This document shows positions 5,866 through 53,533 of a stretch of 64,000 nucleotides of DNA, piece by piece. The stretch comes from Elusimicrobiota bacterium (GTDB taxonomy: Bacteria; Elusimicrobiota; Elusimicrobia; UBA1565), in the NCBI GenBank assembly GCA_043827405.1, contig JBDRPD010000083.1, forward strand, positions 13,572 through 77,571, in the 5' to 3' direction. The translations under genes and the position numbers were made by a program. Positions within the stretch are counted from its first letter, which is position 1, and every line of letters begins with the position of its first letter. The notes below the pieces were generated by a model, which made no database searches, had not been told where the DNA came from, and was given only the letters and a program-made list of their open reading frames with translations.

Positions 5866-5870
5866 GTTTT

Positions 5871-6968: not shown

Positions 6969-8661
6969 GACCCGGCTGCGCATTGGCCTGGATTTCGACA
7001 ATACCGTGATCCGTTATGACGACGTCTTCTGTGGGCTGGCGCGTGAGCGCGGCTGGCTGGCCGCCGGAGACGACTGCTCGAAGACGGAGCTGCGTGAGCG
7101 CCTGGTGCGCGAAGACGGCGACGATCTGCGCTGGCAGAGGCTGCAGGCGGATGCCTATGGAGAACATATGCGCCGGGCGCGGGTGTTCCCCGGCTGCCGC
7201 GAATTCCTGCGGTGGGCGGCGGACCACGGGCACCGCGTCTTCATCGTCAGTCATAAAACGGAAACTTCAAATTTCGCTCCCGGCGTCCGGCTGCGTGAGC
7301 GTGCGTTGGCATGGCTGCAAACCAATGAGTTCGTGAGCAACGGCGTTCCAGCCGAGGGCGGCGTCGCGAACAAAGATGTCTTCTTCTTGGCGACGCGTGA
7401 GGAAAAGGTCGCCAAGATCGTTGAGCTGCGGCTCGACCTTTTTGTCGACGATCTGCTTCCCGTGCTGCGGCATGCGGAGTTCCCGCGCGCTACCTGCGGC
7501 GTGCATTTCGCCCCCGCAGGCTCCCGGCGGGAAGCCGGAGCCGTCACCGCCGGCTCGTGGAGTGGAGTGACGGCGGCCGCGGCCTGTCTGTCTCTTTCCG
7601 GCCGTGAGCCGTTTGACGCTTTCACCGCCGCCTTCGGCCTGCCTACGGCGGCGCGCCCCGCGGACCGCAGCGGCAATAACCGGATAATTCAGGTCGACGC
7701 GGAGGACCGGGTACCCCGCGTAATCAAAAGGTATCTTGTCGATAAGCGCGACCCGCGTCCGCGCGCAGCCGCCGAGTACCAGGCTCTTTCCCTGTTGTGG
7801 GAGAACGGCTTTAGGAATGTCCCGCGTCCGTATATTTTGGACGAATATGGATCTTTCGCCGTATTCTCACGGATAGAGGGCTCGCGGCCCGCGGCGGCGG
7901 CGATCACGGAAGACCATGTCCTGCAAGCGGCGGACTTCCTGCTGGCTCTTGATAAGCTGCACCTCCGGCGCCGGGGCGAAACTTATCCCGAAGCCGCCGA
8001 TTCGCGGCGCTGTTTGCGGGATTACGTGCGTCATATCGAACGTCGGCTCAACGGTATTCGGAGCGGACTTGCAGGCGGGGATTTTTGCGCCGCCGCGGAC
8101 TTTGTTGAAAACAAGCTGGTGCCGCTTAAGGATTGTCTCGTCGATAAGTTTATCCGCGAGGCGGAGGCGAGCGGAGAGGATCTCGACGCGGAGACGCCGG
8201 ACGAAGGGCGCTGTCTCAGCCCCTCCGATTTCGGTTTCCATAATGCCCTGGTTGATGGTAAGGGTAAAGTCCACTTCGTTGATTTTGAATACTTCGGCAA
8301 GGATGATCCGGCCAAGCTGGTGGCGGATTTTCTGCATCATGCCGGGCAGGAGCTCAGCTGGGAACATAAGGCGCTGTTTCTTGAGCGGGTGGTGAGCGGC
8401 TTCGCGCACGGGAAGGCGCTGCGGACGCGGCTGAAGCTTGTCGTAGACCTGATCGGTTTGGAGTGGCTGCTGATTATCCTGAATGTTTTGTCGCCGGAAG
8501 CTCTGGCGCGCAAGGAGTTCTCGAATCCTGGTTCCGATATGCACGGCCGGGTGGCGGCGAGACTGCGGACGGCTGAGATGCGGTACGCTGAGATAATTGA
8601 ATTTGAATCGTCGGCATCGCGGCATGCCACGGTGCCGGACTTTTCCGCTGTGTTGGGGTGA
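6958..8661 (+). CDS. Fusion of a HAD-like phosphatase (N) and an aminoglycoside/choline-kinase-like phosphotransferase (C)
   Basis: IGLDFDNT (HAD DxD), IVSHK, LFVDDL. The C-terminal half has LSPSDFGFHN and FVDFEYFG (APH catalytic and metal-binding motifs). Start at ATG 6958. Confidence 0.8.
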   Translation: MALETRLRIGLDFDNTVIRYDDVFCGLARERGWLAAGDDCSKTELRERLVREDGDDLRWQRLQADAYGEHMRRARVFPGCREFLRWAADHGHRVFIVSHKTETSNFAPGVRLRERALAWLQTNEFVSNGVPAEGGVANKDVFFLATREEKVAKIVELRLDLFVDDLLPVLRHAEFPRATCGVHFAPAGSRREAGAVTAGSWSGVTAAAACLSLSGREPFDAFTAAFGLPTAARPADRSGNNRIIQVDAEDRVPRVIKRYLVDKRDPRPRAAAEYQALSLLWENGFRNVPRPYILDEYGSFAVFSRIEGSRPAAAAITEDHVLQAADFLLALDKLHLRRRGETYPEAADSRRCLRDYVRHIERRLNGIRSGLAGGDFCAAADFVENKLVPLKDCLVDKFIREAEASGEDLDAETPDEGRCLSPSDFGFHNALVDGKGKVHFVDFEYFGKDDPAKLVADFLHHAGQELSWEHKALFLERVVSGFAHGKALRTRLKLVVDLIGLEWLLIILNVLSPEALARKEFSNPGSDMHGRVAARLRTAEMRYAEIIEFESSASRHATVPDFSAVLG

Positions 8662-8663
8662 AT

Positions 8664-9485
8664 ATGAACAAGATCGACTATCGGTCCAAGGGCCTCCAAG
8701 TGCGAAAAGATATCATCGATATTCTTGCCAAGGCGGGGCGCGGTCATATCGGAGCCGCCTTTTCTTTGGTGGAGGTTCTGCTGGTTTTGTACTACGGGGT
8801 GCTGCGGGTAGATTCCCGAAAGCCGGATTGGAAGGATCGGGACAGGCTTATTTTCAGTAAAGGACACGGCTGCCTGGCGTTGTATCCGATACTCGCGGAC
8901 TTGGGCTTCTTCCCTCGCGAGGAGTTGTGGAAGTTTTGCTCCCCGCATGGGATATTGGGCGGGCACCCCGAGCACTACAAAGTGCCCGGAGTTGAAGCGT
9001 CCACGGGAGCGCTCGGCCATGGGCTGTCTATCGGCATTGGAATGGCACTAGCGTCTAAGATGAACGAACAAGACTACCGCGTCTACGTAATCGTCGGCGA
9101 CGGGGAGTGTGACGAAGGCTCAATATGGGAGGGGGCGCTCGCGGCCAGCAAGCACCGGCTTGACCGCTTGACAGTGATCGTGGACTACAATAAGCAGCAG
9201 TCCTACTCAGATACCGCGGAGGTGCTGCCCCTTGAGCCGTTCGCCGACAAGTGGCGGAGCTTCGGTTTCGAGGTTCAGGAAGCAGACATGGAGCACCCCG
9301 AGCAGCTGCGTGACGCGCTGGACAAGGCGCCGCGCGGGGACGGCGCGCCGAGAGTGGTCATTTGCCATACCATAAAAGGCAAGGGCGTCTCTTTCATCGA
9401 ACGGAATTTACAATGGCACCACAAGTCGCGGCCGTCGGAAAGCGAGCTTGCGGATATTCGCCGGGAGCTCGAGGCCGCGTCATGA
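8664..9485 (+). CDS. Transketolase-like N-terminal subunit (ThDP-binding)
   Basis: GHIGAAFS, DRLIFSKGH, STGALGHG, VGDGECDEGSIWE...DYN (GDG-x-N ThDP motif), TIKGKGV. Confidence 0.92.
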   Translation: MNKIDYRSKGLQVRKDIIDILAKAGRGHIGAAFSLVEVLLVLYYGVLRVDSRKPDWKDRDRLIFSKGHGCLALYPILADLGFFPREELWKFCSPHGILGGHPEHYKVPGVEASTGALGHGLSIGIGMALASKMNEQDYRVYVIVGDGECDEGSIWEGALAASKHRLDRLTVIVDYNKQQSYSDTAEVLPLEPFADKWRSFGFEVQEADMEHPEQLRDALDKAPRGDGAPRVVICHTIKGKGVSFIERNLQWHHKSRPSESELADIRRELEAAS

Positions 9486-10420
9486 GAAAGCGCTGCCTAA
9501 ATACAATCCATGAGCTCGCCCGCCGCAATAAAGATGTTGTTTTTGTCGGCTCCGATCTCGGCGCCGGTGTGCTGGAAGATATGAAGCAGGAGCTACCGGG
9601 ACAGTTTATGATGGAAGGCGTTTCGGAGCAGCATATCGTCGGCATGGCCGCGGGGCTAGCGATGAGCGGCAAAATAGTTTACATCAACACGATCGCGCCG
9701 TTTATTACGCGGCGCTGCTTTGAGCAGAACGTGATCGACCTGGGTTTGGCGAAGGCAAACGTTCGCTTGACGGGCAGCGGCGGGGGGCTCGTGTACGCGC
9801 CCTTGGGCCCGACGCATCTGGCGACCGACGACATCGCGATCATGCGTGCGATCCCAAACATGACCGTCATCGCTCCCGCGGATGCCGAAGAGATGGAGCG
9901 GGTCGTGCGGGCGTCAGAAACCTATGCCGGGCCGATTTATATCCGCATCGCCAAGGGCGGCGATCCGGTGGTGTCGTCTCCGGATCATCCCTTCGCTATC
10001 GGCGAGGCGGTCGTGCACCGCGATGCGGGCGAGGTTTTGTTCGTGACCACGGGCATTATGCTGGCGCGCTCTCTTGCCGCAACGGAGTCCCTGCGGAAGT
10101 CCGGTATCGAAGCGGGAGTCGTGCATTTGCATACCATTAAGCCGTTTGACGGTGAGACCGTGCTGCGTGCGCTGGGCGGAGCCCGCGTCGTTATTACACT
10201 GGAAGAGCATACGATCGTCGGCGGCCTGGGCAGCGCGGTCGCCGAGCTTATCGCAGAAAATATTTTTATTCGGACGCCGCTGCTGCAGCGCCTGGGCATT
10301 CCCGATGTATTCCCCGATCAGTACGGCTCGCAGGACTCGCTGCTGAAGCGCTTCGGGCTCGATGTGGAGAGCATTGTTCGGCGGACGGAAGAGAGCCTCG
10401 CCCGGACGGCAAAGCGATGA
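9482..10420 (+). CDS. Transketolase-like C-terminal subunit
   Basis: GVSEQHIVGMAAGLA, GPTHLATDD, PIYIRIAKG, TIKPFD, LEEH...GGLGSAVAE. ATGA overlap at 9482. Confidence 0.92.
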   Translation: MRKRCLNTIHELARRNKDVVFVGSDLGAGVLEDMKQELPGQFMMEGVSEQHIVGMAAGLAMSGKIVYINTIAPFITRRCFEQNVIDLGLAKANVRLTGSGGGLVYAPLGPTHLATDDIAIMRAIPNMTVIAPADAEEMERVVRASETYAGPIYIRIAKGGDPVVSSPDHPFAIGEAVVHRDAGEVLFVTTGIMLARSLAATESLRKSGIEAGVVHLHTIKPFDGETVLRALGGARVVITLEEHTIVGGLGSAVAELIAENIFIRTPLLQRLGIPDVFPDQYGSQDSLLKRFGLDVESIVRRTEESLARTAKR

Positions 10421-10908: not shown

Positions 10909-12125
10909 TCCGTGTCCTGCGCCGCGGCGCACGGTATCTGGTGCAGCTGTGCGGCGCTGTCGTGATCCTGCTGCTGTACGCGGTAAAGCCGGTATTGTGG
11001 TTGCGGCTGGGGCGCCTGCACAGCGATCGGATTGGAATTCTGGCGGCGGGCACCGACCTGTTCCTGCGGCGGCGGCAGCTTGGCGACGTCGATCCTCGTA
11101 TTCGGCATTTGTTCGTCGCCCGGCCAACGTGCAACCGGCAGCTGCTCGAAATGTACCAGCGCCTTTTGCCGATTTATGAGAGCGCCGCGTTGTCCAAGAT
11201 TTACGATATTTGTGTGCCGCTGCTGAAGCATACGCCGTTTTATGAGCCGCTCGCCTTCCGTTGCGATGAATTCCGCGAGTTCGCCGAGGGTCGTAGGTCT
11301 TTGTCGTTTACTCCAGAGGAAGAGTTCCGCGGCAGAAAGCTGTTGGCGGAGATGGGGATCAAGGACGGTGATTGGTTCGTGTGCTTCCATAATCGGGATG
11401 GGGCCTATCTGACGCAGGAGTTCCCTGACCGGGATTGGAGTTATCATGATGAGCGCGACAACAGCATTGAAAACCTCTGCGCAGCGGTGCGCTATGTCGT
11501 GGACAGCGGCGGCGCGGCCGTTCGCATGGGCGCGGTGGTTCAGCATCCTCTTCCGGCGAGCTTCCAGCATCCTCGAATTATCGATTATGCGCGCAAGCAC
11601 CGGAGTGATTTTCTGGATATTTACCTGCTGGCCAAGTGCAAGTTTATGATCGGTTCGGATACCGGACTGGCTCAGGTCGCCACGGTGTTTGATGTCCCCG
11701 TCGCGAATACCAACTCCGTGTACAGCGACTGGGCGGCCTTCCGGCCGGACGATATCTTCATCACCAAGAAAGTGTATGACGTGAATGCGGAGAGGTATCT
11801 TGGTTACAGGGAGGCACTTTGCCGCGGCGTGTCCCTCACCGGGTTGGCGCTCCGCGACTACGAGAAGTCGGGATTGTCCTTGCACGAGAACACCGCGGCC
11901 GAGATCAAGGACCTAGTGCTGGAGATGAATGAGCGCCTGGATGGCGTCTGGAAAGTTGAGCCGGCGGATGAGGATTTGCAGCGCCGCTATTGTGAGATGT
12001 TCTCGGAGCGGGATTTCTGTTACGGTTTCCGTTCCCGCGTCGGCACCCGGTTTCTATGGGAAAACAAGAGTCGCATATTTGGGGACGGAGAAGGCGTAAT
12101 GCCGTCCCTTCAGCAAGGAGCTTGA
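10905..12125 (+). CDS. Putative glycosyltransferase, TIGR04372 family
   Basis: RIGILA, WFVCFHNRDGAYL, RDNSIEN, VRMG, DFLDIYLLAKCKFMIGSDTGL. Family recalled from these motifs, not searched. Confidence 0.72.
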   Translation: MIRVLRRGARYLVQLCGAVVILLLYAVKPVLWLRLGRLHSDRIGILAAGTDLFLRRRQLGDVDPRIRHLFVARPTCNRQLLEMYQRLLPIYESAALSKIYDICVPLLKHTPFYEPLAFRCDEFREFAEGRRSLSFTPEEEFRGRKLLAEMGIKDGDWFVCFHNRDGAYLTQEFPDRDWSYHDERDNSIENLCAAVRYVVDSGGAAVRMGAVVQHPLPASFQHPRIIDYARKHRSDFLDIYLLAKCKFMIGSDTGLAQVATVFDVPVANTNSVYSDWAAFRPDDIFITKKVYDVNAERYLGYREALCRGVSLTGLALRDYEKSGLSLHENTAAEIKDLVLEMNERLDGVWKVEPADEDLQRRYCEMFSERDFCYGFRSRVGTRFLWENKSRIFGDGEGVMPSLQQGA

Positions 12126-13384
12126 ACGTGTCCGGTACTACCAACAAGCGTGCCGTATTTCGTCGTAATACCTGCCGACTATGTGCCCGGGGCGGGCTGG
12201 AGCTTGTGCTGCGGCTGCCGCCGACGCCGCCGGGAGACCACTACATCAAGGCCGACCGCCTGAATGAGGCGCAGGCCTGCTATCCCATCGACCTGGCGCT
12301 CTGCCGCGACTGCGGCTTCGTGCAGCTCTTGGATGTGGTCGATCCGGATATTTTGTACGGAAACTACATTTACAGCACGCAGTCTTCGCCAGGGCTGGAT
12401 GAGCATTTCCAGAAATACGCGGACTCGACGATCGCGCGGCTTTCCATCCCGGCTGGTGCATTCCTCGTGGAGTTCGGCAGCAACGACGGTACGCTGCTGC
12501 GGCGCTTTAAAGAGCGCGGCGTCAAGACCCTTGGGGTGGACCCGGCGGCGGCGGTGGCTCGTGCCGCAACTGAGGCGGGCGTCGAAACGATTAACGCGTA
12601 CTTTACGGCGGAAGTCGCCGAGCGGATCGTCGCCGAGAAGGGGCGCGCCGACGTGATCATCGCCAATAATGTTGTCGCCAACATTGACGACCTGGATGCG
12701 GTCGGCGAGGCGGTGCGGCACCTGCTCGCTCCCGGCGGCGCGTTCGTCTTCGAGAGCGGCTACCTGCTCGATCTGGTGCGCAACAACGTCTTCGACAATA
12801 TTTATCACGAGCATTTAAGCTACCTGTCGGCTAAGCCGCTGGTTTCCTTTTTCCGCGGCAAGGGCATGGAGGTCGTGGATGTGGAGCATGTCCCGACAAA
12901 AGGCGGGTCGATCCGGGTGACGACGCAGCTGGCGGGCGGGGGGCGGCAGCCCGCCGCCTCGGTGGCTCAGGCCGTCGCCGAAGAGGAGTCGGCGGGCATT
13001 TATGCGCCGCAAACCTATACCGTCTACGGCCAGCGCCTGGCCAAAATGAAAGCGGACCTGCTGACGCTTCTCGACGCGCTGCGGGAGGAAGGTAAAAAAA
13101 TAGCGGGCTACGGCGCTTCCACCAGCGTCACCACGTTGGGCTACTACTTCGACGTCTGGGACAAGCTGGACTTTATCGTCGACGACAATCCTATCAAGCA
13201 GAATCGCTACACTCCCGGCGCGCATGTCCCGGTGCTGCCGTCCGACGCTCTGTATGAGAAGAAGCCGGACTATGTTGTGGTTCTTCCATGGCGCTTCGCC
13301 GAGCAGATCCGCGCCCGGCACAAAGTTTTCAGCGAGAAGGGCGGCCGCTTCATCGTCCCGGTGCCGGCGCTGGCCGTTTACTAG
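12122..13384 (+). CDS. NDP-hexose C-methyltransferase (N-terminal Zn finger, SAM domain, C-terminal domain)
   Basis: CRLC...CRDC Zn site, VEFGSNDG, IYHEHLSY, GGSIR, GYGA, DDNPIKQ, VLPW. Start uncertain (TTG 12122 or GTG 12128). Confidence 0.88.
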   Translation: MNVSGTTNKRAVFRRNTCRLCARGGLELVLRLPPTPPGDHYIKADRLNEAQACYPIDLALCRDCGFVQLLDVVDPDILYGNYIYSTQSSPGLDEHFQKYADSTIARLSIPAGAFLVEFGSNDGTLLRRFKERGVKTLGVDPAAAVARAATEAGVETINAYFTAEVAERIVAEKGRADVIIANNVVANIDDLDAVGEAVRHLLAPGGAFVFESGYLLDLVRNNVFDNIYHEHLSYLSAKPLVSFFRGKGMEVVDVEHVPTKGGSIRVTTQLAGGGRQPAASVAQAVAEEESAGIYAPQTYTVYGQRLAKMKADLLTLLDALREEGKKIAGYGASTSVTTLGYYFDVWDKLDFIVDDNPIKQNRYTPGAHVPVLPSDALYEKKPDYVVVLPWRFAEQIRARHKVFSEKGGRFIVPVPALAVY

Positions 13385-13390
13385 ATAAAT

Positions 13391-14479
13391 ATGACGAAGA
13401 TCTCGTGGTGGCGGACATCTTTTGGGGAGGCTGAAGTCGAGCGCATGCAAATGGCGGTACGCAATGAGCATATCAGCGCGGGCCCGGTCACTGAGGCGCT
13501 CGAAGCCGAGATCGCGCGCGCGCTGGACGTCCCGTACGCGGTTGTGACAACAAGCGGCAGCGCCGCGCTGTTCCTGGCGCTGCAGGCGGTCGGAGTCCGG
13601 CGCGGCGACGAAGTCATCGTGCCGGACCGCACCTGGATCGCCACGGCCCACGCGGTGTTGCTGGCTGGCGCCAAGGTCGTGCTGGCGGACGTTCGTTCAG
13701 ATATCCCGACGCTGGATGTCGAGCGGCTGAAAGAGAAGATAACTCCGCGGACCAAGGCGATACTGCCGGTCCACTTGAACGGGCGCGCGGTCGAGATGGA
13801 TAAGGTCCACGCACTCGCGGCCGAGCATGGGCTGAGGGTTGTGGAGGACGCCTGCCAGGCTTTATTTTCGCGCGACAGCGGCTGCTGTTTGGGCACGCAG
13901 TCGGATGCGGGTTGCTTTTCCATGAGCGTCACCAAGCTGATCTCAACGGGTCAGGGCGGTTTCGCGGTGACGAAGGATAAGGCGGTGTACGAGCAGATGA
14001 CGGCTCTGCGTAATCATGGGGTGGCTGACTACTTCGCCGACCGTTGGAACCAGTTCGGTTTCAATTTAAAGTTTACGGATCTGCTCGCGTCTTTCGGTTT
14101 GGTGCAACTGGCCAAGGCGGCGGAACGCGTTGCGGTGCTGCAGGCGATCTACGAGAAATACCGAAACGGCCTCGTGGGTCTGCGGTCGGTCAAGCTGCTG
14201 CCGTCCCGGGTGGCCGCGGGCGAGCTCCCGCTGTATGCGGAAGTCCTGTGCACGGAACGGGAGCGGCTCGTCGAGTTCCTGGCTGCCCGGGACATCCAGA
14301 CGCGTCCCGTACCGCCGAACCTGGATATCTCCGACTACATCGAGAACGACGGCAACTATCCGAACTCCCGGCGCTTTGCGGAGCAGGGGATGTACCTGCC
14401 CTGCGGCCCCGGGCAGCCGCTGGAGAACATAGACCGCGTCATCGAGGCGGTCGCGCAGTTCGCGCCCAGAGAGGTTTAG
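13391..14479 (+). CDS. DegT/DnrJ/EryC1/StrS sugar aminotransferase (third copy)
   Basis: TTSGSAALFLAL, VEDACQA, FSMSVTKLISTGQGG, GFNLKFTD. Confidence 0.9.
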   Translation: MTKISWWRTSFGEAEVERMQMAVRNEHISAGPVTEALEAEIARALDVPYAVVTTSGSAALFLALQAVGVRRGDEVIVPDRTWIATAHAVLLAGAKVVLADVRSDIPTLDVERLKEKITPRTKAILPVHLNGRAVEMDKVHALAAEHGLRVVEDACQALFSRDSGCCLGTQSDAGCFSMSVTKLISTGQGGFAVTKDKAVYEQMTALRNHGVADYFADRWNQFGFNLKFTDLLASFGLVQLAKAAERVAVLQAIYEKYRNGLVGLRSVKLLPSRVAAGELPLYAEVLCTERERLVEFLAARDIQTRPVPPNLDISDYIENDGNYPNSRRFAEQGMYLPCGPGQPLENIDRVIEAVAQFAPREV

Positions 14480-15574
14480 ATGAGTTTCAAGACCATCACC
14501 GCGCCCCATATCAACGCCAACGACGTCGAAATGGTACTTGTCGAATGGCATGTCCGCCCATGGCAGAAGATCGTAAAAGGCGAGCCGATATGCGACGTCG
14601 AGAGCACTAAGGCGCTGCTTACCGTTGAGGCCGATCGGGCGGGCTACGTCTATCCCTTGGTCGAAGAGAAAGCGACGGTGCGGGTCGGCGAGCCGCTGGC
14701 GCATGTTTTCGTCAAGAGCGATCCCGAGCAGCTGGCTGCCGTCGAGAAGAAGGCCGCCCGCGGCGGCACAATTGTTACAAAGAAAGCGAGGATTCTTATG
14801 CAGGAATTCGGGCTCACGGCTTCCGATTTTCCGGAGTTCACAAATATTAGTTCGGAGACGGTGGTGGCGAAGATTCGGGAGCGCAAGCTCGCTCCGGCGA
14901 CCGAGGGCGGTGCCGAGGCGCGTGAGGTGCGCTTGGACGATACGTCTGTGGTGCTGTACGGAGATGACCCGAACTTCGCGCTGCTGGCGTTGGATGCGTT
15001 TGCCGCCGGCGGGCGGTACTCGCCGGCGGCCTATGTCGGCGCGGCGCGAGGCGGAGAGTTCTATGGGATCCCCGCGCTACCTTCCGGCGCGCTGAGCGGG
15101 CTTATGGCGCGCGGCGCGCGGCGCGTGTTTATTTGCGGTTCGGATTGCGCGGCGCAGGTGCGGGAGTGTGAGGCTTTGGGATGGGAGATCGTTTCGGCGG
15201 TCCATTCTTCCGCAGTCGTCGCTGTTACCGCGCGTCTGGGCCGGGGCGTGTTCGTTGGCGCCCAGGCTGCGATCGGGCCGGACGCGGAAATCGGAGACTT
15301 CTGCCGGATACTGTGCGGGGCTTCGGTCGCCCACCACGGCCGGTTGGGCAAGTTCGTCAGCGTTTCCGACGGCGCCCGGCTGGGAGGGCACGTCTCGGTG
15401 GGGGACGGAAGCCTCATCGGCATCGGAGTGAATGTGAACAAGCGCGTGGCGATGGGGAAAGGGGTGGTCGTCGTCTCGGGCGTTACCGTGACCGACCATG
15501 TGCCGGATAAGCAGGTCGTGCGCGCCGCCGGACAAGGGAAGACGGATTATCAGCAGAGAGCGAAAGAGGAGTGA
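14480..15574 (+). CDS. Lipoyl domain + peripheral subunit-binding-like domain + PglD/NeuD-type left-handed beta-helix acyltransferase fusion
   Basis: Residues ~1-78 fit a lipoyl domain (VKGEPICDVESTKA, Lys44 at 14609-14611). VTKKARILMQEFGL resembles the PSBD helix. The C-terminus has hexapeptide repeats (VHSSAVV, LGRGVFVG, IGPDAEIG, VAHHGRLG, VSVGDGSLIG). Confidence 0.8.
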   Translation: MSFKTITAPHINANDVEMVLVEWHVRPWQKIVKGEPICDVESTKALLTVEADRAGYVYPLVEEKATVRVGEPLAHVFVKSDPEQLAAVEKKAARGGTIVTKKARILMQEFGLTASDFPEFTNISSETVVAKIRERKLAPATEGGAEAREVRLDDTSVVLYGDDPNFALLALDAFAAGGRYSPAAYVGAARGGEFYGIPALPSGALSGLMARGARRVFICGSDCAAQVRECEALGWEIVSAVHSSAVVAVTARLGRGVFVGAQAAIGPDAEIGDFCRILCGASVAHHGRLGKFVSVSDGARLGGHVSVGDGSLIGIGVNVNKRVAMGKGVVVVSGVTVTDHVPDKQVVRAAGQGKTDYQQRAKEE

Positions 15575-15576
15575 CT

Positions 15577-16611
15577 ATGTATCTGCGACATAACGATATG
15601 CCGGACATCGTCCGGCTTGAATTGACGAACACCTGCAATATGTCGTGCCCTCACTGCCGGCATCATAGCCCGGAAAAGAGGAGGCCGGAGAACTACGCCG
15701 AGTACTACAAAAACCAAACGAACATGACGGAGGAACAGGTGGGGGCGATCTTCGATGAGATCGGGCCGCACAAGCCTTCGATGACGCTCAATGTGGCCAA
15801 TGAGCCGCTTATCGCGCCGGCCTTCCCGTTCGCGGTGCGCAAGGTTCGGGAGCACGGGATCGCGGGAACCTTCAACACCAACGGGATCGCGCTGACGGAG
15901 AAGATCGCCCGTCTTCTCGTGGATGTCGAATTCGACTCGATCAATATTAGCGTCGACGCCCTGACTCCGGAGACTCTAAAAAAGGCGCGCGGCATCACGG
16001 CGCTGGATAAGCTGGTGCGGAACGTCGAAATGCTGGTAGAAATCCGCGGCGGCAAGCGCTTTCCCCGCATCGGAGTGACCTTCGTGGAGATGGACTACAA
16101 CGTCCATGAAATACCGGAGTTTCTGGAGTTCTGGAAGAAGCGCGTCGATGTGATCCGAATCACTGGCTACATCTCCGACAATAAGCCGGATGTCAAGAAG
16201 TTCCCGACAGGACGCAAGGAGGGGTTGCCGGATCGAGTGCCGTGCAAGCAGCTGTTTCGCGATATCGTCATCCGCGCCAACGGCGACGTGACTCCGTGCG
16301 TGATTACTTCAGAAAACCCTGATCCGGTGCTCAGTGTCGGCAATATATTCAAGGATGGCGGCATCCGCGCGGTGTGGAACGGCCGCGCCATGCAGAAGCT
16401 GCGTGACATGCACAACAGCGGGAAATGGGAAGATATTTCATACTGTGCGCCGTGCGACTACTGGGTGGAGACCTTTGAGATGAAGGAGGAGCGGCGGGAC
16501 GGCTTCTTTATCCGAACGCCCTCGCCCTACACCGCGTTCTATAACGTCGAGGAGAGAATGGCGAACTGGAACAAGAAGCTTCTCGACCGGCAAGGGATGG
16601 GCGAACTTTGA
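15577..16611 (+). CDS. Radical SAM protein with C-terminal SPASM/twitch domain
   Basis: TNTCNMSCPHC (CxxxCxxC), ANEPL, FNTNG, ISVDA. C-terminal PCKQLF...VTPC...VGNIFK...CAPC. ATG 15577. Confidence 0.9.
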   Translation: MYLRHNDMPDIVRLELTNTCNMSCPHCRHHSPEKRRPENYAEYYKNQTNMTEEQVGAIFDEIGPHKPSMTLNVANEPLIAPAFPFAVRKVREHGIAGTFNTNGIALTEKIARLLVDVEFDSINISVDALTPETLKKARGITALDKLVRNVEMLVEIRGGKRFPRIGVTFVEMDYNVHEIPEFLEFWKKRVDVIRITGYISDNKPDVKKFPTGRKEGLPDRVPCKQLFRDIVIRANGDVTPCVITSENPDPVLSVGNIFKDGGIRAVWNGRAMQKLRDMHNSGKWEDISYCAPCDYWVETFEMKEERRDGFFIRTPSPYTAFYNVEERMANWNKKLLDRQGMGEL

Positions 16612-17513
16612 GCTTCCAGCTGAGCCGGGTCCTGCTGCTGGGGCATAGCGGCTTTATCGGTTCCGCGCTGGCGCGGCGGCTTCATGAAAGCCGGCCGGGG
16701 ATTGAGGTCGTCGGTCTGTCCTACCCGCCCTTCGACCTGACAGCACAGGAGCGGATAGCGGAGCTGCGGGAGGAACTGCGGCCGGGAACTGCCGTGGTCA
16801 TGTTGTCGGCGGTCAAGCGGCAGAGCGGCGACACGCTGGAGAACTACCTGCAGAACCAGATGATGGTGGTTAATTTGTGCCGGGCGCTGGAGGGACGCAG
16901 CTCCGTGCGCGTCGTATTCTTCAGCTCGACCGCGGTTTACGGCGAGGATGTGCACAATACCGAAATCACCGAGGCGACGCCGGTCCGTCCGCGCTCCTAT
17001 TATGGGATGGCGAAGTACTCCGGGGAGCGGATTCTCGCCAAGGCGTTCCAATCCGACAACGGGCGCGGGCTCGTCCTGCTGCGGCCCGCCACCGTCTATG
17101 GCGCCGGTGAACCCGGCACGGGTTATACGCCCACGGGCTTTCTGCGCAAGATGCGCGGTGGAGAGCGTCTGACACTGTGGGGCGACGGCAGCGAGTTGCG
17201 CGAGTTTATATATATCGATGATCTGACCGCGCTGACCGAGCGCCTGATCTTCAGCGACTTCTCCGGGGTGGTCAATATCGTTAGCGGCCGGAGCCGCACC
17301 TTCCAGGAGATCGCCGCGGCCGCTGTGCAGCTCGTCGGGGGAGGAGAAGCTCCCGACCGCAAGCCGAGGAGCAAGGATAAAGTTGACAACTGCTTCGTTC
17401 CCACTTATGTGCCGCGGCTTTTCCCTGAATTCACGTTCACTAGTATCGAGGACGGGATGCGGCGGATCAACGAGCTGGAAGCGGCTGCAGCTTCCGCCGG
17501 TGGCGTGAAATGA
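16608..17513 (+). CDS. NAD-dependent epimerase/reductase (extended SDR)
   Basis: LLGHSGFIGS, FFSSTAVYG, YGMAK, REFIYIDD. Confidence 0.85.
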   Translation: MSFQLSRVLLLGHSGFIGSALARRLHESRPGIEVVGLSYPPFDLTAQERIAELREELRPGTAVVMLSAVKRQSGDTLENYLQNQMMVVNLCRALEGRSSVRVVFFSSTAVYGEDVHNTEITEATPVRPRSYYGMAKYSGERILAKAFQSDNGRGLVLLRPATVYGAGEPGTGYTPTGFLRKMRGGERLTLWGDGSELREFIYIDDLTALTERLIFSDFSGVVNIVSGRSRTFQEIAAAAVQLVGGGEAPDRKPRSKDKVDNCFVPTYVPRLFPEFTFTSIEDGMRRINELEAAAASAGGVK

Positions 17514-26183: not shown

Positions 26184-27134
26184 GTGAGCATGATAGCAAA
26201 AGAGGGTTTACCGGTCGGTGAGCTGTGGCGACGAATGCTGTTGATCCGGCGCTTTGAAGAGAACCTGCTGCGGATGTTTGGGCAGGGCGAGATCTTCGGC
26301 ACCACACACTGCTGTATCGGCCAAGAAGCCAACGCCGTTGGCATAGCCTCCTGCCTGCGGCCGGGTGATTTCGTGGTCAGCAACCACCGTTGCCATGGAC
26401 ACTATCTGGCGCGCACCGGTGATGTGGAGGGGCTGCTCGCGGAGATGATGGGACGGTCGGCGGGGGTCGTCGGCGGCAGAGGGGGGTCTCAGCATCTGCA
26501 CGCAGAGAACTTTATTTCGAATGGAATCCTCGGCGGCGGCACGCCTATCGCGGTCGGAACCGCGCTCGCGCATAAACTGGAAAAATCCGATGCGGCAACA
26601 GTTTGCTTTATTGGTGATGGGACTTTCGGCGAAGGGGTTCTCTACGAAGCGCTTAACATGGCATCCTTGTGGGGGGTACCGGTCCTTTTTGTGGTTGAGA
26701 ATAACCATTATTCACAATCGACGCCGATCATGAAAAACCTGGCGGGGAGTCTGCGCGGGCGTTTCGACGCTTTCGGGATTGCGGCGCAGGAGATCGAGAG
26801 CTTCGATGTGGCGGAGATTCGCAGCGCCGCTGATAAGCTTCTGGAAGATATGCGGCGGCGTGTCCGACCGGCGGCTTTACTCATAAGTACCTACCGTTTT
26901 TGTCACCATTCCAAGAACGATGACGCGCGCGATCCGGCGGAGGTCGCGCGGTGGAAAAAACGTGATCCCGTCGACGCCTTGCGGGAAACTGTCGACGCCG
27001 GCGAGCTCGAGCGGGCCGAACAGGAGATCGAGCAGCGCCTGAAACAGGCGGAGCGCGCGGCCAGCGAGAGCCCGGAGCCGGCGCTCACCGCGCGGCATCT
27101 TGATCCCTATTTTACCAGCGATGAGATACGTTAA
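26184..27134 (+). CDS. ThDP-dependent 2-oxoacid dehydrogenase E1 alpha-like subunit
   Basis: TTHCCIGQEA, SNHRCHGH, GRGGSQH, FIGDG...EALN...VENNHYSQST, TYRFCHHS. Start at GTG 26184 or ATG 26190. Confidence 0.92.
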   Translation: MSMIAKEGLPVGELWRRMLLIRRFEENLLRMFGQGEIFGTTHCCIGQEANAVGIASCLRPGDFVVSNHRCHGHYLARTGDVEGLLAEMMGRSAGVVGGRGGSQHLHAENFISNGILGGGTPIAVGTALAHKLEKSDAATVCFIGDGTFGEGVLYEALNMASLWGVPVLFVVENNHYSQSTPIMKNLAGSLRGRFDAFGIAAQEIESFDVAEIRSAADKLLEDMRRRVRPAALLISTYRFCHHSKNDDARDPAEVARWKKRDPVDALRETVDAGELERAEQEIEQRLKQAERAASESPEPALTARHLDPYFTSDEIR

Positions 27135-28134
27135 GCGGCTCAACGAGGCCTTGGCCGGCCTGCTCGCCGATGACCCCAAGATCGTGCTGCTGGGCGAAGA
27201 TATCGCCGATCCTTACGGCGGCGCCTTCAAGGTTACCCGCGGCCTGTCTACGCGCTTCCCCGAGCGGGTATTCTCAACCCCGGTAAGCGAGGCCGGCTTT
27301 ACCGGCGTCGCGGTCGGCCTGGCGCTTAAGGGCTTCAAGCCCGTCGTCGAGATTATGTTCGGCGACTTCATCACTCACTGCGCCGATCAGATAGTCAACC
27401 ACGCGGCCAAGCTCGGCTGGTACCGCGATCCCGAGCGCGGGGTGCCGCTGGTTTTTCGCACGCCGATGGGCGGCGGCCGCGGCTACGGCGCGACGCATTC
27501 GCAGTCCCTTGAGAAAATGTTTCTTGGCGTGCCGTTTGTGCATGTCGTCGCCGGCAATCTGCTGACCGATCCCGGCGATCTTCTCACGCAGGCGCTCCGG
27601 CTGGACCGGACCGTTCTCTTCATCGAACATAAGCTGCATTACGGCAGGGAGTTGCTGGACGAAACCGCCGATGAGTTGGGCGCGTTTCGCATCACGATGA
27701 CTACTGGAGACTTTCCGACAGCGACGATTGCGATCGCCGACGGCGCCGCGCCGCAGGCGACCTTGGTCGCCTATGGCGCGATGGCCGACCTTTGCCTTGA
27801 GGCTTCGCGCCGTCTGTTTGTTGAAGATGAGGTCGAAGCGGAAGTCGTGGTCCCGTCGCGGATTAAGCCTTTCCCGCTCGATCCGATCATGGCGTCCGTG
27901 CGGCGGACCGGCCGGCTCGTCGTCGTCGAGGAGGGGACGGAGGGCTTCGGCTGGGGCGCGCAGGTCGTCTGCACTTTGCTGGAGCGCGGCGCCGCGTTCG
28001 CCGCGCCGCCCAAGGCCATCGCCGCGGCGGCCTGCCCGCTGGCGGGCTCTCCGTATCTCGAGAAGATGCTCCTGCCGCGGACGGATGATATCGTCGCCGC
28101 GGTGCGGTCGATTATGGCAGGGAGGAAATTATGA
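27121..28134 (+). CDS. 2-oxoacid dehydrogenase E1 beta-like subunit
   Basis: LLGEDIADPYGGAFKVTRGL, FSTPVSE, EIMFGDF, YGATHSQS, FIEHK, VVVEEG. ATG 27121. Confidence 0.92.
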   Translation: MRYVKRLNEALAGLLADDPKIVLLGEDIADPYGGAFKVTRGLSTRFPERVFSTPVSEAGFTGVAVGLALKGFKPVVEIMFGDFITHCADQIVNHAAKLGWYRDPERGVPLVFRTPMGGGRGYGATHSQSLEKMFLGVPFVHVVAGNLLTDPGDLLTQALRLDRTVLFIEHKLHYGRELLDETADELGAFRITMTTGDFPTATIAIADGAAPQATLVAYGAMADLCLEASRRLFVEDEVEAEVVVPSRIKPFPLDPIMASVRRTGRLVVVEEGTEGFGWGAQVVCTLLERGAAFAAPPKAIAAAACPLAGSPYLEKMLLPRTDDIVAAVRSIMAGRKL

Positions 28135-43073: not shown

Positions 43074-43257
43074 AATCCTAATTCTAACAAGGACTCTGAT
43101 TTTGACCTAGGAGCATAAGTCACAGCGCGCGCGTGCCATTGGTCCTAGACGCGTCTGTTCACATATTGATCCCTAGCATCCCTGGGGGATTGGGGCTATA
43201 ATGGGACGGAAAAGCGGAGGCTAAAGCAGATGTTTCGATCACGCAGGAGCGGGGTTA

Positions 43258-44448: not shown

Positions 44449-44503
44449 GACAGAAATTCATAAGACAGCCAGGAGCCGTTAGCGAACGAAACAGGCGGAG
44501 ATT

Positions 44504-45217: not shown

Positions 45218-45239
45218 GCCGCGACCTCGAAAATCCTCC

Positions 45240-48217: not shown

Positions 48218-48447
48218 CGTCCCACTCCATGTTCCGCTAAAACTTTTACGATCCCCGAGAACGTCAGAAGCTGCGCGATTTGCTCTTTGCTGAATGTCAG
48301 ACTGAACTCTGACTGCAGGGCTCCGACTAGCTTGACGTACATGATCGAATCCCAGAATTCCAGGCTCCTAAAATTGTCGGCTTCCCGGATGCTGTCTATG
48401 TTCTCGTCTAGTACGCGCTCTAGAATTTCTTTTAGTTTTTCGTTCAT
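48214..48447 (-). CDS. Acyl/peptidyl carrier protein
   Basis: 77 aa, acidic, with FWDSIMYV phosphopantetheine serine motif; lies next to the SDR and adenylation genes. Confidence 0.85.
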   Translation of the reverse strand: MNEKLKEILERVLDENIDSIREADNFRSLEFWDSIMYVKLVGALQSEFSLTFSKEQIAQLLTFSGIVKVLAEHGVGR

Positions 48448-48496
48448 GTTCGCGATTCCTGTTAAAAGCTTTAGTGGTTTTTAAAAATTTATCAGT

Positions 48497-51262: not shown

Positions 51263-51266
51263 CTGT

Positions 51267-52884: not shown

Positions 52885-52903
52885 GACGGGTTCGGCGTCG
52901 CTC

Positions 52904-53530: not shown

Positions 53531-53533
53531 GCC

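What the first reader, a model, noticed from the sequence alone, without database searches (positions are those of the whole stretch)
13391..15574. E2-like lipoyl carrier fused to a sugar N-acyltransferase: possible CoA-independent acyl relay
Seen: 14480-15574 has a lipoyl domain (ESTKA, Lys44; closer to the lipoyl E[T/S]DKA motif than to biotin EAMKM), a PSBD-like helix, then a PglD/NeuD left-handed beta-helix with a His (VAHH) at the expected catalytic position. Its ATG directly follows the stop of a DegT aminotransferase. Established: lipoyl-PSBD-catalytic is E2 architecture; PglD-type trimers N-acylate NDP-amino sugars using acetyl-CoA; PDH-like E1 pairs load glycolyl units onto lipoyl carriers in quinocarcin/naphthyridinomycin biosynthesis. 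Inference: the orphan E1 alpha/beta at 26184-28134 acylates this lipoyl arm from a 2-oxoacid or ketose, and the beta-helix passes the acyl group (acetyl, glycolyl or other) straight to the amino sugar. Caveat: the PglD N-terminal GxGGH motif is degenerate (YGDDPNF).
Basis: partly seen in the sequence, partly recalled or inferred. Interest (0 to 1): 0.9.

Follow-up and report, generated by a model that had tools for sequence, protein, structure and literature searches.

The report
Lipoyl-armed sugar N-acyltransferase with PDH-like E1
A sugar-decorating enzyme here carries the swinging lipoyl arm and docking helix of a pyruvate-dehydrogenase E2, and in about 85 of 89 other genomes it sits next to its own E1 enzyme. 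This suggests an undescribed way of putting an acyl group on a cell-surface amino sugar straight from a 2-oxoacid, without coenzyme A.

Summary
ORF 14480-15574 (364 aa) has four parts:
- a lipoyl domain (ESTKA, Lys44);
- a degenerate peripheral-subunit-binding domain (PSBD);
- a PglD_N-like Rossmann-like domain;
- a PglD/PerB-type left-handed beta-helix. His285 aligns with the catalytic His141 of PerB.

Its ATG directly follows the stop codon of a DegT aminotransferase.

The architecture is a broad family, not a one-off. At least 140 clusters at 50% identity were found, and 93 genome loci across more than ten phyla. Lys44 and His285 are invariant in 156/156 members.

In 85 of 89 informative loci, E1 alpha/beta genes orthologous to window 26184-28134 lie within 2.6 kb, usually directly upstream.

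Two Clostridia loci also carry a lipoate-protein ligase and an E3-like dehydrogenase in the same cluster. One Omnitrophota locus has the carrier and the transferase as separate genes flanking E1.

Best reading: this is a PDH-like system whose E2 catalytic core has been replaced by a sugar N-acyltransferase. The path would be E1 to acyl-lipoyl-Lys44 to beta-helix to 4-amino sugar.

The acyl group is unknown, and coenzyme A independence is inferred, not shown. Seven searches of the held paper library found no description of it.

The parts
13391..14479 (+). DegT/DnrJ/EryC1-family PLP aminotransferase. It is the presumed maker of the NDP-4-amino-4,6-dideoxy sugar that receives the acyl group.
   Evidence: Pfam E = 1e-83. 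The best NCBIfam models are C4 aminotransferases PseC, LegC and WecE, all below cutoff. Its stop TAG at 14477-14479 abuts the fusion's ATG.
14480..15574 (+). Fusion protein of 364 aa: lipoyl domain, PSBD, PglD_N-like domain and left-handed beta-helix N-acyltransferase.
14480..14710 (+). Lipoyl domain (aa 1-77). Lys44 (codon 14609-14611) is the predicted lipoylation site.
   Evidence: Biotin_lipoyl scores 34-39 bits, above the cutoff. K44 is invariant in 156/156 and E41 in 154/156. AF2 pLDDT is about 78-97. Foldseek matches lipoyl domains 3crk_C and 1y8n_B at rmsd 1.3-1.4.
14768..14890 (+). Degenerate peripheral-subunit-binding domain (aa 97-137, TIVTKKARILMQEFGLTASDFPEFTNISSETVVAKIRERKL).
   Evidence: It has no Pfam or PDB match on its own. 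Family profiles match PSBD structures at E about 1e-6. AF2 predicts two helices at 101-110 and 125-135.
14936..15199 (+). Rossmann-like domain of PglD_N type (aa 153-240) with a degenerate glycine loop (LYGDDPNF).
   Evidence: It aligns with PerB residues 23-100. AF2 pLDDT is 74-92 with alternating strands and helices. Pfam PglD_N matches other members: P0017-P0019, the L030 fusion and the L062 fusion.
15200..15520 (+). Left-handed beta-helix acyltransferase domain (aa 241-347). His285 (codon 15332-15334) sits at the catalytic position.
   Evidence: Hexapep and NeuD/PglB/VioB, E = 2e-30. H285 aligns with PerB H141 and is invariant in 156/156.
26184..27134 (+). E1 alpha subunit (ThDP-binding) of a heterotetrameric 2-oxoacid dehydrogenase type. 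It is the predicted loader of the lipoyl arm.
   Evidence: E1_dh E = 1e-53. It matches human PDHA1 at E = 1e-43. It is 41-56% identical to the E1 alpha next to the fusion in other genomes. The His in RFxxHSK is invariant in 48/48.
27100..28134 (+). E1 beta subunit.
   Evidence: Transket_pyr + Transketolase_C. PDB PDH E1 beta matches at E = 3e-44. The His of THSQSLE (the H128-beta position) is present in all 75 sequences with a residue there, and the Glu of SEAG in all 73.
8658..10420 (+). Split transketolase-like pair (8658-9485 and 9362-10420) at the head of the same operon. It is a possible alternative loader in the window only, and not a conserved partner.
   Evidence: NCBIfam transketolase scores 235 and 198 bits, with Pfam matches. 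A true copy was seen only in L010 among the related loci. The architecture matches QncN/SclQ2-Q3 (PMC6335953).

Best explanation
The fusion is the core of a pyruvate-dehydrogenase-like multienzyme system. The usual E2 catalytic domain, which passes the acyl group to coenzyme A, has been replaced by a PglD/PerB-type sugar N-acyltransferase that is presumably a trimer.

Proposed cycle:
1. Lys44 is lipoylated by the cell's lipoate machinery, or by a ligase encoded in the cluster in some Clostridia.
2. The E1 alpha/beta enzyme (window 26184-28134) decarboxylates a 2-oxoacid with ThDP and reductively acylates the lipoyl arm. The substrate is unknown, and pyruvate is the default guess. The PSBD holds E1 and/or E3 on the core.
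3. The S-acyl-dihydrolipoyl arm swings into the acyl-donor groove of the beta-helix, where relatives bind the pantetheine of acyl-CoA.
4. His285 deprotonates the 4-amino group of the NDP-amino sugar made by the adjacent DegT enzyme. The acyl group ends up as an amide on the sugar.
5. A dihydrolipoamide dehydrogenase (E3) re-oxidises the arm with NAD+.

Net reaction: 2-oxoacid + NDP-4-amino sugar + NAD+ gives CO2 + NDP-4-acylamido sugar + NADH, with no coenzyme A.

Shown here: the domain content, the invariant residues, and the gene linkage with E1, lipoate ligase, E3 and DegT. Inferred: every chemical step, the acceptor and the acyl group.
For: Domains and residues. K44 and H285 are invariant in 156 members that are mostly 50% identical or less. 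PSBD homology holds at family level.

E1 linkage: 85 of 89 informative loci across more than ten phyla have E1 within 2.6 kb. The taxa include Elusimicrobia, Alpha-, Beta- and Gammaproteobacteria, Prochlorococcus, Chloroflexota, Bacteroidota, Myxococcota, Actinomycetota, Clostridia and Gemmatimonadota-type (Longimicrobiales) MAGs. The Omnitrophota locus L014 adds an unfused version of the same module.

Anaerocolumna xylanovorans L030 has this gene order: three GT4 glycosyltransferases, a fused E1 alpha-beta, the fusion, lipoate-protein ligase LplA, an E3-like Pyr_redox_2 + Pyr_redox_dim protein, DegT, and an ABC-2 exporter. L068 also has LplA and E3.

Unfused version in L014: a PglD-like protein, E1 alpha, E1 beta, then a 145-aa lipoyl+PSBD protein.

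Module E1s keep the residues needed to acylate lipoate: the H271-alpha and H128-beta equivalents and the ThDP-activating Glu. They are invariant, and their roles are described in PMC2663715.

Frequent neighbours are DegT, a PglC-like phosphoglycosyl transferase and a dehydratase, which together form a bacillosamine-like cassette. Subfamily A6 keeps the canonical GGGGHAK loop and A5 a glycine-rich IYGAGxGA loop. Both points argue for an amino-sugar acceptor.

The C-terminal GxP[AGS][KR] motif is present in all plain PglD-like units examined but missing in 135/156 fusions. This is suggestive only.

Precedent from established knowledge: LpxA and LpxD are beta-helix acyltransferases that take the acyl group from a carrier protein (their NCBIfam names appear).
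Against: There is no biochemical evidence at all.

In the window, E1 lies 10.6 kb from the fusion and in another transcription unit. That layout is an outlier, though four other loci also lack an adjacent E1.

The window has no E3 or lipoate ligase, so both must come from elsewhere in the genome.

The window's subfamily has lost the glycine-rich loop, and the Asp that follows the second strand is not conserved either. In the window it is AYVGA where relatives read FLDD or FIDD. Its acceptor may therefore not be bound like a standard NDP-sugar.

Many Chloroflexota loci show no DegT within 6 kb.

If the acyl group is plain acetyl, the advantage over acetyl-CoA is unclear.

The AF2 model is a monomer with pTM 0.39 and says nothing about docking of the arm.
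Confidence: 0.65

Rival explanations
1. Coenzyme A shuttle. The beta-helix domain first works as a true E2, passing the acyl group from acyl-dihydrolipoyl to CoA. The resulting acyl-CoA is then used, in the same or a neighbouring active site, to acylate the sugar. The system would be a private acyl-CoA generator channelled to a sugar transferase, and would not be CoA-independent.
For: Relatives such as PerB and PglD bind acetyl-CoA (crystal entry titles). The acyl-donor groove is built for a pantetheine thiol. 21 of 156 fusions still have the C-terminal GxP[AGS][KR] motif of plain PglD-like enzymes. In many Chloroflexota the E1-fusion operon stands alone, away from sugar genes.
Against: Most fusions, including the window's, lack that motif. 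A two-step route through free CoA needs the same groove twice. The QncL-type system already shows lipoyl-to-acceptor transfer without CoA (PMC6335953). No CoA-related gene is linked.
Confidence: 0.15
2. The lipoyl domain and PSBD do not carry the acyl group. The transferase uses acetyl-CoA from the pool as PglD does. The lipoyl arm serves another purpose, for example as a redox partner or scaffold for an E1 that modifies the sugar itself. An example is the two-carbon branching of a keto sugar proposed, from my memory, for E1-like pairs in avilamycin and aldgamycin pathways.
For: The window cluster makes a heavily modified sugar. It has two C-methyltransferases, a radical SAM/SPASM enzyme and a split transketolase. 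E1 is not adjacent to the fusion in the window.
Against: K44 is invariant in 156/156, and a lipoate ligase and E3 lie in the cluster in Clostridia. The E1 histidines needed specifically for lipoate acylation are invariant. Linkage is to the transferase, fused or unfused, rather than to any keto-sugar enzyme.
Confidence: 0.08
3. In this window only, the loader is the split transketolase 8658-10420. It would take a C2 unit from a ketose phosphate and place it on the lipoyl arm as glycolyl, as in the quinocarcin and scleric acid systems. The sugar would become N-glycolylated, and the E1 pair at 26184-28134 would serve something else.
For: The split transketolase is in the same operon as the fusion, 4 kb upstream. 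Its two-gene architecture matches SclQ2/SclQ3 and QncN/QncL (PMC6335953). L010 also has both a split transketolase and the module.
Against: It is absent from the other related loci, whereas E1 alpha/beta is present in 85/89. The window's E1 pair carries the signatures of the module E1s: Gln in NNHYSQSTP, and HSK..DD. L010 has its own adjacent E1 as well.
Confidence: 0.08

Closest known systems
Dihydrolipoamide acyltransferase (E2) of 2-oxoacid dehydrogenase complexes with heterotetrameric E1, such as Geobacillus stearothermophilus PDH and acetoin dehydrogenase AcoABC
   Same: It shares the N-terminal lipoyl domain with the modified lysine, followed by a PSBD and then a catalytic domain. It has partner E1 alpha/beta genes directly upstream, and E3 and a lipoate ligase in some clusters. 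The lipoyl domain's best NCBIfam match is AcoC. Full-length E2 models are the top Foldseek hits.
   Different: The catalytic domain is not the chloramphenicol-acetyltransferase-like 2-oxoacid_dh fold. It is a PglD-type Rossmann-like domain plus a left-handed beta-helix. The predicted acceptor is an amine on a sugar, not the thiol of CoA. The core would be a trimer rather than a 24-mer or 60-mer (inference).
PglD / PerB / VioB / LegH-type NDP-4-amino-sugar N-acetyltransferases (NCBIfam TIGR03570)
   Same: It shares the two-domain catalytic part, the catalytic His (PerB H141 = His285) and a position next to a DegT aminotransferase. In other loci it lies next to PglC-like transferases or NeuB-like synthases.
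   Different: It has about 150 extra N-terminal residues (lipoyl + PSBD) and obligate linkage to E1. The window's subfamily lacks the glycine-rich loop, and most members lack the C-terminal GxPA[KR] motif. The score is below the family cutoff (105.7 against 160.8 bits).
QncN/QncL/QncM (quinocarcin) and SclQ1-4 (scleric acid) glycolyl-loading systems
   Same: A ThDP enzyme loads an acyl unit onto a lipoyl domain. An attached acyltransferase then passes it to a non-CoA acceptor for use in a biosynthetic pathway (PMC6335953).
   Different: In those systems the loader is transketolase-like, the acyltransferase is the ordinary E2 catalytic domain, the acceptor is the thiol of an acyl carrier protein, and the product enters a non-ribosomal peptide. 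Here the loader is PDH-type E1, the transferase is a beta-helix, and the acceptor is a sugar amine.
LpxA / LpxD
   Same: These are left-handed beta-helix trimers that acylate a UDP-sugar (O- or N-acylation) with an acyl thioester delivered on a carrier protein rather than on CoA (family names; mechanism from established knowledge).
   Different: Their carrier is a free acyl carrier protein with phosphopantetheine, loaded by fatty acid synthesis. Here the carrier is a fused lipoyl domain loaded by a 2-oxoacid decarboxylase.

Membership tests
2-oxoacid dehydrogenase E2 (dihydrolipoamide acyltransferase) | Lipoyl domain with a conserved lipoyl-lysine at the tip of a beta-hairpin | tested here: met
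   Biotin_lipoyl scores above its cutoff. K44 is invariant in 156/156. All sequence matches are to E2 or E3BP lipoyl domains. Foldseek gives rmsd 1.3-1.4 to PDH L2 domains.
2-oxoacid dehydrogenase E2 (dihydrolipoamide acyltransferase) | Peripheral-subunit-binding domain (Pfam E3_binding) | tested here: inconclusive
   The window's copy alone has no match. Family profiles match PSBD structures at E about 1e-6, and 19/45 members match Pfam E3_binding. It is homologous at family level and degenerate in this copy.
2-oxoacid dehydrogenase E2 (dihydrolipoamide acyltransferase) | C-terminal 2-oxoacid_dh catalytic domain (CAT-like fold with a His/Asp active site) that transfers the acyl group to CoA | tested here: not met
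   No such Pfam or NCBIfam match covers residues 140-364. That region is PglD_N-like plus Hexapep.
2-oxoacid dehydrogenase E2 (dihydrolipoamide acyltransferase) | Lysine actually lipoylated and reductively acylated by E1 | not testable with these tools
   Support is indirect only: the E1 linkage, LplA and E3 in the cluster in L030 and L068, and conserved E1 histidines.
PglD/PerB/NeuD-type sugar acyltransferase (TIGR03570) | Left-handed beta-helix with hexapeptide repeats | tested here: met
   Hexapep E = 3e-10. TIGR03570 positions 75-197 match at E = 2e-30. PerB matches at E = 6e-15.
PglD/PerB/NeuD-type sugar acyltransferase (TIGR03570) | Catalytic histidine (PerB H141, PglD H125 from memory) | tested here: met
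   H285 aligns with the residue mutated in 4eaa and 4eab. It is invariant in 156/156.
PglD/PerB/NeuD-type sugar acyltransferase (TIGR03570) | N-terminal Rossmann-like domain with a glycine-rich GxGGH loop that holds the nucleotide | tested here: not met
   The fold is predicted, but the loop reads LYGDDPNF where PerB has GGGGHAK. The window's subfamily reads IYGExNQ. Subfamily A6 keeps ILGGGGHAK and A5 keeps IYGAGxGA.
PglD/PerB/NeuD-type sugar acyltransferase (TIGR03570) | Whole-protein score above the family's curated cutoff | tested here: not met
   105.7 bits against a cutoff of 160.8.
PglD/PerB/NeuD-type sugar acyltransferase (TIGR03570) | Acetyl-CoA as acyl donor | not testable with these tools
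   The C-terminal GxPA[KR] motif of plain members is absent. Its role in CoA binding was not checked.
QncN/L/M-type lipoyl relay | Transketolase-like loader, lipoyl + E2 catalytic domain, ACP acceptor | tested here: not met
   The conserved loader is PDH-type E1. There is no E2 catalytic domain. No ACP turned up among the ORFs scanned in the window, though small ORFs were not scanned. A split transketolase is present but is not a conserved partner.

The most novel reading that the evidence does not exclude
This would be a widespread, so far unrecognised class of 'glycan-acylating 2-oxoacid dehydrogenase complexes'. E1, a lipoyl-PSBD-beta-helix core and E3 together would write acyl groups taken directly from 2-oxoacids onto NDP-amino sugars without coenzyme A. 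The acyl groups may be non-acetyl ones such as glycolyl, propionyl or hydroxyacyl, for which the cell has no acyl-CoA pool. Such complexes could account for N-acyl decorations of bacterial surface sugars and nonulosonic acids whose genetic basis is unknown. Examples are the N-glyceroyl and putative N-glycolyl groups discussed for Tannerella forsythia in PMC5378307. No link to that organism was tested here.
Probability: 0.35. Interest if true: 0.9.

Novelty: new variant of a known kind. Interest (0 to 1): 0.8.

Why it matters
Lipoyl arms are known to deliver acyl groups to coenzyme A in central metabolism and, in one rare natural-product system, to a carrier protein. Delivery to a sugar amine by a beta-helix transferase would be a third outlet and a new way to build an amide.

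It would show that the E2 scaffold is modular, because the lipoyl and PSBD parts can be attached to an unrelated catalytic fold.

It would give a function to hundreds of 'orphan' E1 pairs annotated as pyruvate or acetoin dehydrogenase inside polysaccharide, nonulosonic-acid and bacillosamine-like clusters. Many of these are in anaerobes that have no PDH complex.

It also offers a concrete, testable candidate for the origin of unusual N-acyl groups on surface glycans. These groups shape antigenicity and phage or immune recognition.

The system is small, three or four proteins, and looks straightforward to reconstitute.

Tried and rejected
Searches and tests that gave nothing or were superseded:
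- PSBD detection on the window's own linker and on its close subfamily, by Pfam at E <= 10, a PDB profile, and per-member scans. There was no match. Detection succeeded only with family-wide profiles.
- The word-indexed protein search suggested only about 22 fusions. The exhaustive HMM search showed this was an artefact of sensitivity.
- A family-wide alignment of 150 sequences was too diverse for the locus finder, so I used subfamily alignments.
- Seven literature searches found nothing on this architecture. These covered lipoyl with hexapeptide, PglD, NeuD, bacillosamine, nucleotide sugar or O-antigen, and E1 with nonulosonic acids or glycosylation islands. One hit on 'lipoylation' of flagellin glycans uses the word loosely for fatty acylation.
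- Source names for homologues were uninformative: 'sugar O-acyltransferase NeuD family' and 'UDP-perosamine 4-acetyltransferase'.

Readings considered and rejected:
- Biotin carrier. The motif is not AMKM, all sequence matches are to lipoyl domains, and LplA is linked.
- P0047, P0070 and P0115 as larger fusions. They are tandem PglD repeats without a lipoyl domain.
- An alternative large E1 in the four loci without E1. The neighbours in L062 are unrelated genes, including a copper ATPase, a NACHT protein and an enolase-superfamily enzyme.

Inferring the acyl group from E1 active-site residues was inconclusive. The only finding is a family-specific Gln at the position of I206-alpha.


Full report
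1. WHAT IS IN THE WINDOW

The finding lies inside a sugar-biosynthesis super-cluster of about 31 kb (1-31,400). The cluster holds:
- NAD-dependent dehydratases and epimerases;
- an HldE-like kinase/nucleotidyltransferase;
- three DegT aminotransferases;
- two TylC3-like C-methyltransferases;
- a radical SAM/SPASM enzyme, a WbuC cupin and a TIGR04372 glycosyltransferase;
- an ABC exporter, a GT2 glycosyltransferase, a PMT_2-type membrane transferase, RmlD and several methyltransferases.

One long + strand operon runs from about 8.6 kb to 20.5 kb and includes the two ORFs of the finding. DegT is at 13391-14479, with Pfam E = 1e-83. Its best NCBIfam models are C4 aminotransferases. Its TAG is followed at once by the ATG of ORF 14480-15574. 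The end of that ORF overlaps the GTG of the next gene.

2. THE FUSION PROTEIN (364 aa)

Lipoyl domain, residues 1-77.
- Pfam Biotin_lipoyl scores above its cutoff.
- The motif is E41-S-T-K44-A.
- Every sequence-level match is to the lipoyl domain of an E2 or E3BP: AcoC, SucB, PDH E2, and PDB entries 1ghj, 2dnc, 1pmr and 1lab. None is to a biotin carrier.
- The AlphaFold model gives a confident flattened barrel (pLDDT 78-97). It superposes on the human PDH L2 domains at 1.3-1.4 A.

Catalytic part, residues about 153-347.
- It aligns with perosamine N-acetyltransferase PerB (4ea7, E = 6e-15) over both the Rossmann-like domain and the beta-helix.
- His285 falls on the residue mutated in the H141N and H141A crystal entries.
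- NCBIfam NeuD/PglB/VioB matches at E = 2e-30 but below the family cutoff.

Linker, residues 97-137. This was the weakest part of the observation.
- Alone, or as a profile of the 19 closest relatives, it matches nothing.
- The wider family settles it. A profile of a systematic sample (every third of 156 members, drawn) has PSBD structures as its three best PDB hits: 1w4i 1.2e-6, 1w4j 5.9e-6, and 2eq9_C 7.6e-6. From memory, 2eq9_C is a PSBD crystallised with E3.
- A hand-picked subset gives the same result. 19 of its 45 members match Pfam E3_binding individually.
- Many members read like textbook PSBDs, for example ...AKKILENNSLSINELPGTGPIKADDV....
- The window's copy is a variant with a shortened loop (TKKARILMQEFGLTASDFPEFTNISSETV). 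AF2 still predicts two helices there.
- The two best Foldseek hits for the whole model are full-length E2 chains aligned over 187-210 columns, beyond the lipoyl domain.

3. IT IS A LARGE FAMILY

The word-indexed search returned only about 22 fusions. An exhaustive HMM search of 1.84 billion cluster representatives gave a different picture. About 140 of the best 150 clusters at 50% identity are full-length fusions of 340-400 aa. 1,210 proteins score E <= 1e-30.

In a MAFFT alignment of 156 full-length members, which are mostly 50% identical or less, the key residues hold:
- Lys44: 156/156
- Glu41: 154/156
- His285: 156/156
- the motif is E-[TS]-[TS]-K-[AST].

Subfamily A6 keeps the canonical ILGGGGHAK loop, and A5 keeps a glycine-rich IYGAGxGA loop. 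The degenerate loop is therefore a feature of the window's subfamily only.

One subfamily pattern alone found 541 relatives among GTDB species representatives. The best 80 cover essentially the whole query, so they are full-length fusions. They come mostly from Anaerolineales and other Chloroflexota, but also from Bacteroidota, Myxococcota, Actinomycetota, Clostridia, Paracoccaceae and others. The window's subfamily occurs in Elusimicrobia, Magnetospirillum, Kiloniella, Brevundimonas, a betaproteobacterium and a Prochlorococcus single-cell genome.

4. THE DECISIVE TEST: GENE LINKAGE

They do.

I ran tblastn with the window's own E1 alpha and E1 beta against all 97 fetched loci. Of the 93 loci with a full-length fusion:

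| Outcome | Loci |
|---|---|
| E1 within 2.6 kb | 85 |
| No E1 despite at least 2.2 kb of upstream flank | 4 |
| Flanks too short to tell | 4 |

The usual layout is E1 alpha, E1 beta, then the fusion, on one strand with gaps of 0-150 bp. Identity to the window's E1 is 37-56%. The precomputed gene tables for L008-L010 agree.

The linkage holds even for members only 23-24% identical to the window's protein (L010). It survives gene fusion of E1 alpha with E1 beta in L008 and L030. It also survives a change of gene order in L001.

The window is one of the rare cases where E1 (26184-28134) is not adjacent. It lies 10.6 kb downstream in the same glycan super-cluster. The closest relatives have it adjacent: L008 at 59% identity, and L001, which also shares the radical SAM enzyme at 67% and DegT at 46%.

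Three further observations bear on mechanism.

(a) Anaerocolumna xylanovorans DSM 12503 (L030). The cluster reads: three GT4 glycosyltransferases, fused E1 alpha-beta, the fusion, a lipoate-protein ligase (LplA-B_cat E = 1e-61), an E3-like flavoprotein (Pyr_redox_2 + Pyr_redox_dim), DegT, and an ABC-2 exporter. A Clostridiales MAG (L068) also has LplA and E3 around the fusion. A plausible reading, from general knowledge and not tested here, is that strict anaerobes lacking a PDH complex must import the cofactor-attachment and re-oxidation enzymes along with the module. Either way, a dedicated ligase and E3 argue that the lysine is lipoylated and cycles through the dihydrolipoyl state.

(b) A Candidatus Omnitrophota chromosome (L014). 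The parts are separate genes: a 213-aa PglD-like protein, E1 alpha, E1 beta, then a 145-aa protein made only of a lipoyl domain and a clear PSBD. A NeuB-like gene follows. Fused in most genomes and split in one is the classic sign of a functional partnership.

(c) The E1s of the module. They keep the ThDP-activating Glu and the two histidines that G. stearothermophilus E1p needs for reductive acetylation of lipoate, H271-alpha and H128-beta (PMC2663715). In the module these are RFxxHSK (48/48), THSQSLE (75/75) and SEAG (73/73). The window's E1 has YRFCHHSKNDD and GATHSQSLE. The module E1 alpha also has a Gln, in 46/48 and in the window, where the Geobacillus enzyme has I206-alpha. This is a family signature of unknown meaning.

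5. WHAT IS THE ACCEPTOR?

Beyond E1, the most frequent neighbours are:
- DegT aminotransferases (22-29 loci);
- a small PglC-like phosphoglycosyl transferase, Bac_transf (18 loci);
- a LysM protein (18 loci), which has no obvious role in this pathway;
- NAD-dependent dehydratases/epimerases (13 loci).

Apart from the LysM protein, these are the parts list of a bacillosamine-type pathway. L008 and L014 place the module in nonulosonic-acid clusters with NeuB-like and CMP-transferase genes. In the window the gene is translationally abutted to DegT.

Together with the glycine-rich loops kept in subfamilies A5 and A6, this supports an NDP-4-amino sugar as acceptor.

Two cautions apply. Many Chloroflexota loci show the three-gene module alone, between unrelated genes. 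And the window's subfamily has lost the glycine-rich loop, while the acidic residue after the second strand is not conserved and is a Gly in the window.

6. MECHANISM

I commit to the following as the best reading, with confidence about 0.65:
- E1 decarboxylates a 2-oxoacid and reductively acylates lipoyl-Lys44.
- The PSBD tethers E1 and/or E3 to the presumably trimeric beta-helix core.
- The acyl-dihydrolipoyl arm enters the groove where relatives bind acyl-CoA.
- His285 activates the sugar amine, and the acyl group ends as an amide.
- E3 re-oxidises the arm.

All chemical steps are inferred. A carrier-borne thioester as donor for a beta-helix acyltransferase has a precedent in LpxA and LpxD (established knowledge). 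Lipoyl-to-non-CoA transfer has a precedent in QncL/SclQ4 (PMC6335953).

A small additional hint comes from the C-terminal GxP[AGS][KR] motif. It is present in all ten plain PglD-like units examined and in P0024. It is absent from 135 of 156 fusions, including the window's. I did not verify that this motif contacts CoA.

The acyl group cannot be named. The E1 is closest to PDH-type E1 (human PDHA1 E = 1e-43; TIGR03182 at 265 bits, below its cutoff). Acetyl from pyruvate is therefore the default. A private loader makes more sense for an acyl group that has no CoA pool.

7. RIVALS

- CoA shuttle through the beta-helix site (confidence 0.15).
- An ordinary acetyl-CoA-dependent PglD whose lipoyl arm serves another purpose (0.08). 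This is hard to square with the invariant lysine, the in-cluster LplA and E3, and the conserved E1 histidines.
- For this window only, loading by the split transketolase 8658-10420 in quinocarcin fashion (0.08). That pair is in the same operon, but among the related loci a true copy was seen only in L010.

8. COMPARISON AND NOVELTY

The protein works like an E2 but is not a member of the E2 family, because the defining catalytic domain is absent. It is a divergent member of the PglD/PerB superfamily, but it fails that family's cutoff and, in this subfamily, its nucleotide-loop motif.

Seven full-text searches found no description of a lipoyl-beta-helix fusion or of an E1-dependent sugar N-acyltransferase. 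Database names are generic. The held library lacks most subscription journals, so prior description cannot be excluded.

I rate it a new variant of a known kind: known parts in a new combination with a new predicted reaction. It is of high interest because it is widespread, internally consistent and directly testable.

9. LIMITS

- The work is comparative and predictive only.
- Many of the 80 Chloroflexota loci are phylogenetically related, so 85/89 overstates the number of independent observations. The linkage is nonetheless seen across more than ten phyla.
- The AF2 model is a monomer (mean pLDDT 74, pTM 0.39), and the beta-helix start is poorly predicted.
- No E3, lipoate ligase or canonical E2 was found in the window. 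This rests on tblastn with the L030 proteins and on Pfam scans of the larger ORFs, not of all ORFs.

Noticed in passing
window 8658-9485 and 9362-10420 (+): A transketolase split into a ThDP-binding half and a pyrimidine-binding/C-terminal half heads the operon that contains the fusion. This is the same two-gene architecture as QncN/QncL-N and SclQ2/SclQ3, which load glycolyl onto a lipoyl domain. L010 has one too. Its role here is unknown; it could be a C2 transfer to a sugar or an alternative loader.
   Followed up: partly
L014 5980-9052 (Ca. Omnitrophota chromosome OY759724): An unfused version of the module: a stand-alone PglD-like protein, E1 alpha, E1 beta, then a 145-aa protein made only of a lipoyl domain plus a clear PSBD. 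A NeuB-like synthase gene follows.
   Followed up: yes
L030 4065-10555 (Anaerocolumna xylanovorans DSM 12503); L068: The cluster holds E1 alpha-beta fused in one 647-aa chain, the fusion, lipoate-protein ligase LplA, an E3-like dihydrolipoamide dehydrogenase and DegT. It is a self-contained PDH-like set inside a glycan cluster of a strict anaerobe. L008 also has a fused E1 alpha-beta (667 aa).
   Followed up: yes
window 26184-27134, residues 173-182 (NNHYSQSTPI): E1 alpha subunits linked to the fusion carry a Gln (46/48) where G. stearothermophilus E1p has I206-alpha, a residue that controls the active-site loops. The motif after the catalytic His is HSK[GN]DD. This is a possible signature for recognising module-type E1s, or a hint about substrate.
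   Followed up: partly
window 15490-15574 (C-terminus of the fusion) and family: The C-terminal GxP[AGS][KR] motif, found in every plain PglD-like unit examined, is missing in 135 of 156 fusions. They end with VPDxxxVRxDG-like tails instead.
   Followed up: partly
window 12056-13384, 17510-18715, 15571-16611: Two TylC3-type NDP-sugar C-methyltransferases (Methyltransf_13/14 domains) and a radical SAM/SPASM enzyme flank the fusion. The radical SAM enzyme is 67% identical to one in the Elusimicrobia locus L001. The sugar made here is probably branched or otherwise heavily modified.
   Followed up: no
window 2498-4063, 4738-6968: An HldE-like bifunctional PfkB kinase/cytidylyltransferase-like protein and two further DegT aminotransferases lie in tandem upstream. 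L010 has the same HldE-like gene plus SIS and HAD genes, which hints at a heptose-derived precursor.
   Followed up: no
window 6931-8661 (+), 20477-22306 (-), 28350-29741 (+): Three large ORFs (576, 609 and 463 aa) inside the glycan cluster have no Pfam match.
   Followed up: no
window about 42000-54000: G+C drops to 0.49-0.58 here, against about 0.60-0.65 in the rest of the window. The stretch holds an AMP-binding enzyme and a class-III aminotransferase, and may be a horizontally acquired segment.
   Followed up: no
P0047 (865 aa), P0070 (638 aa), P0115 (425 aa): These proteins consist of four, three and two tandem complete PglD-like units in one chain, with no lipoyl domain. They surfaced among the best family hits.
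   Followed up: partly
L062, L067, L072, L075 (Anaerolineales MAGs): Four fusions have no E1 within 6 kb. In L062 the neighbours are unrelated: a copper ATPase and its repressor, DUF4013, an enolase-superfamily enzyme and a NACHT protein. As in the window, E1 is presumably elsewhere in the genome.
   Followed up: partly
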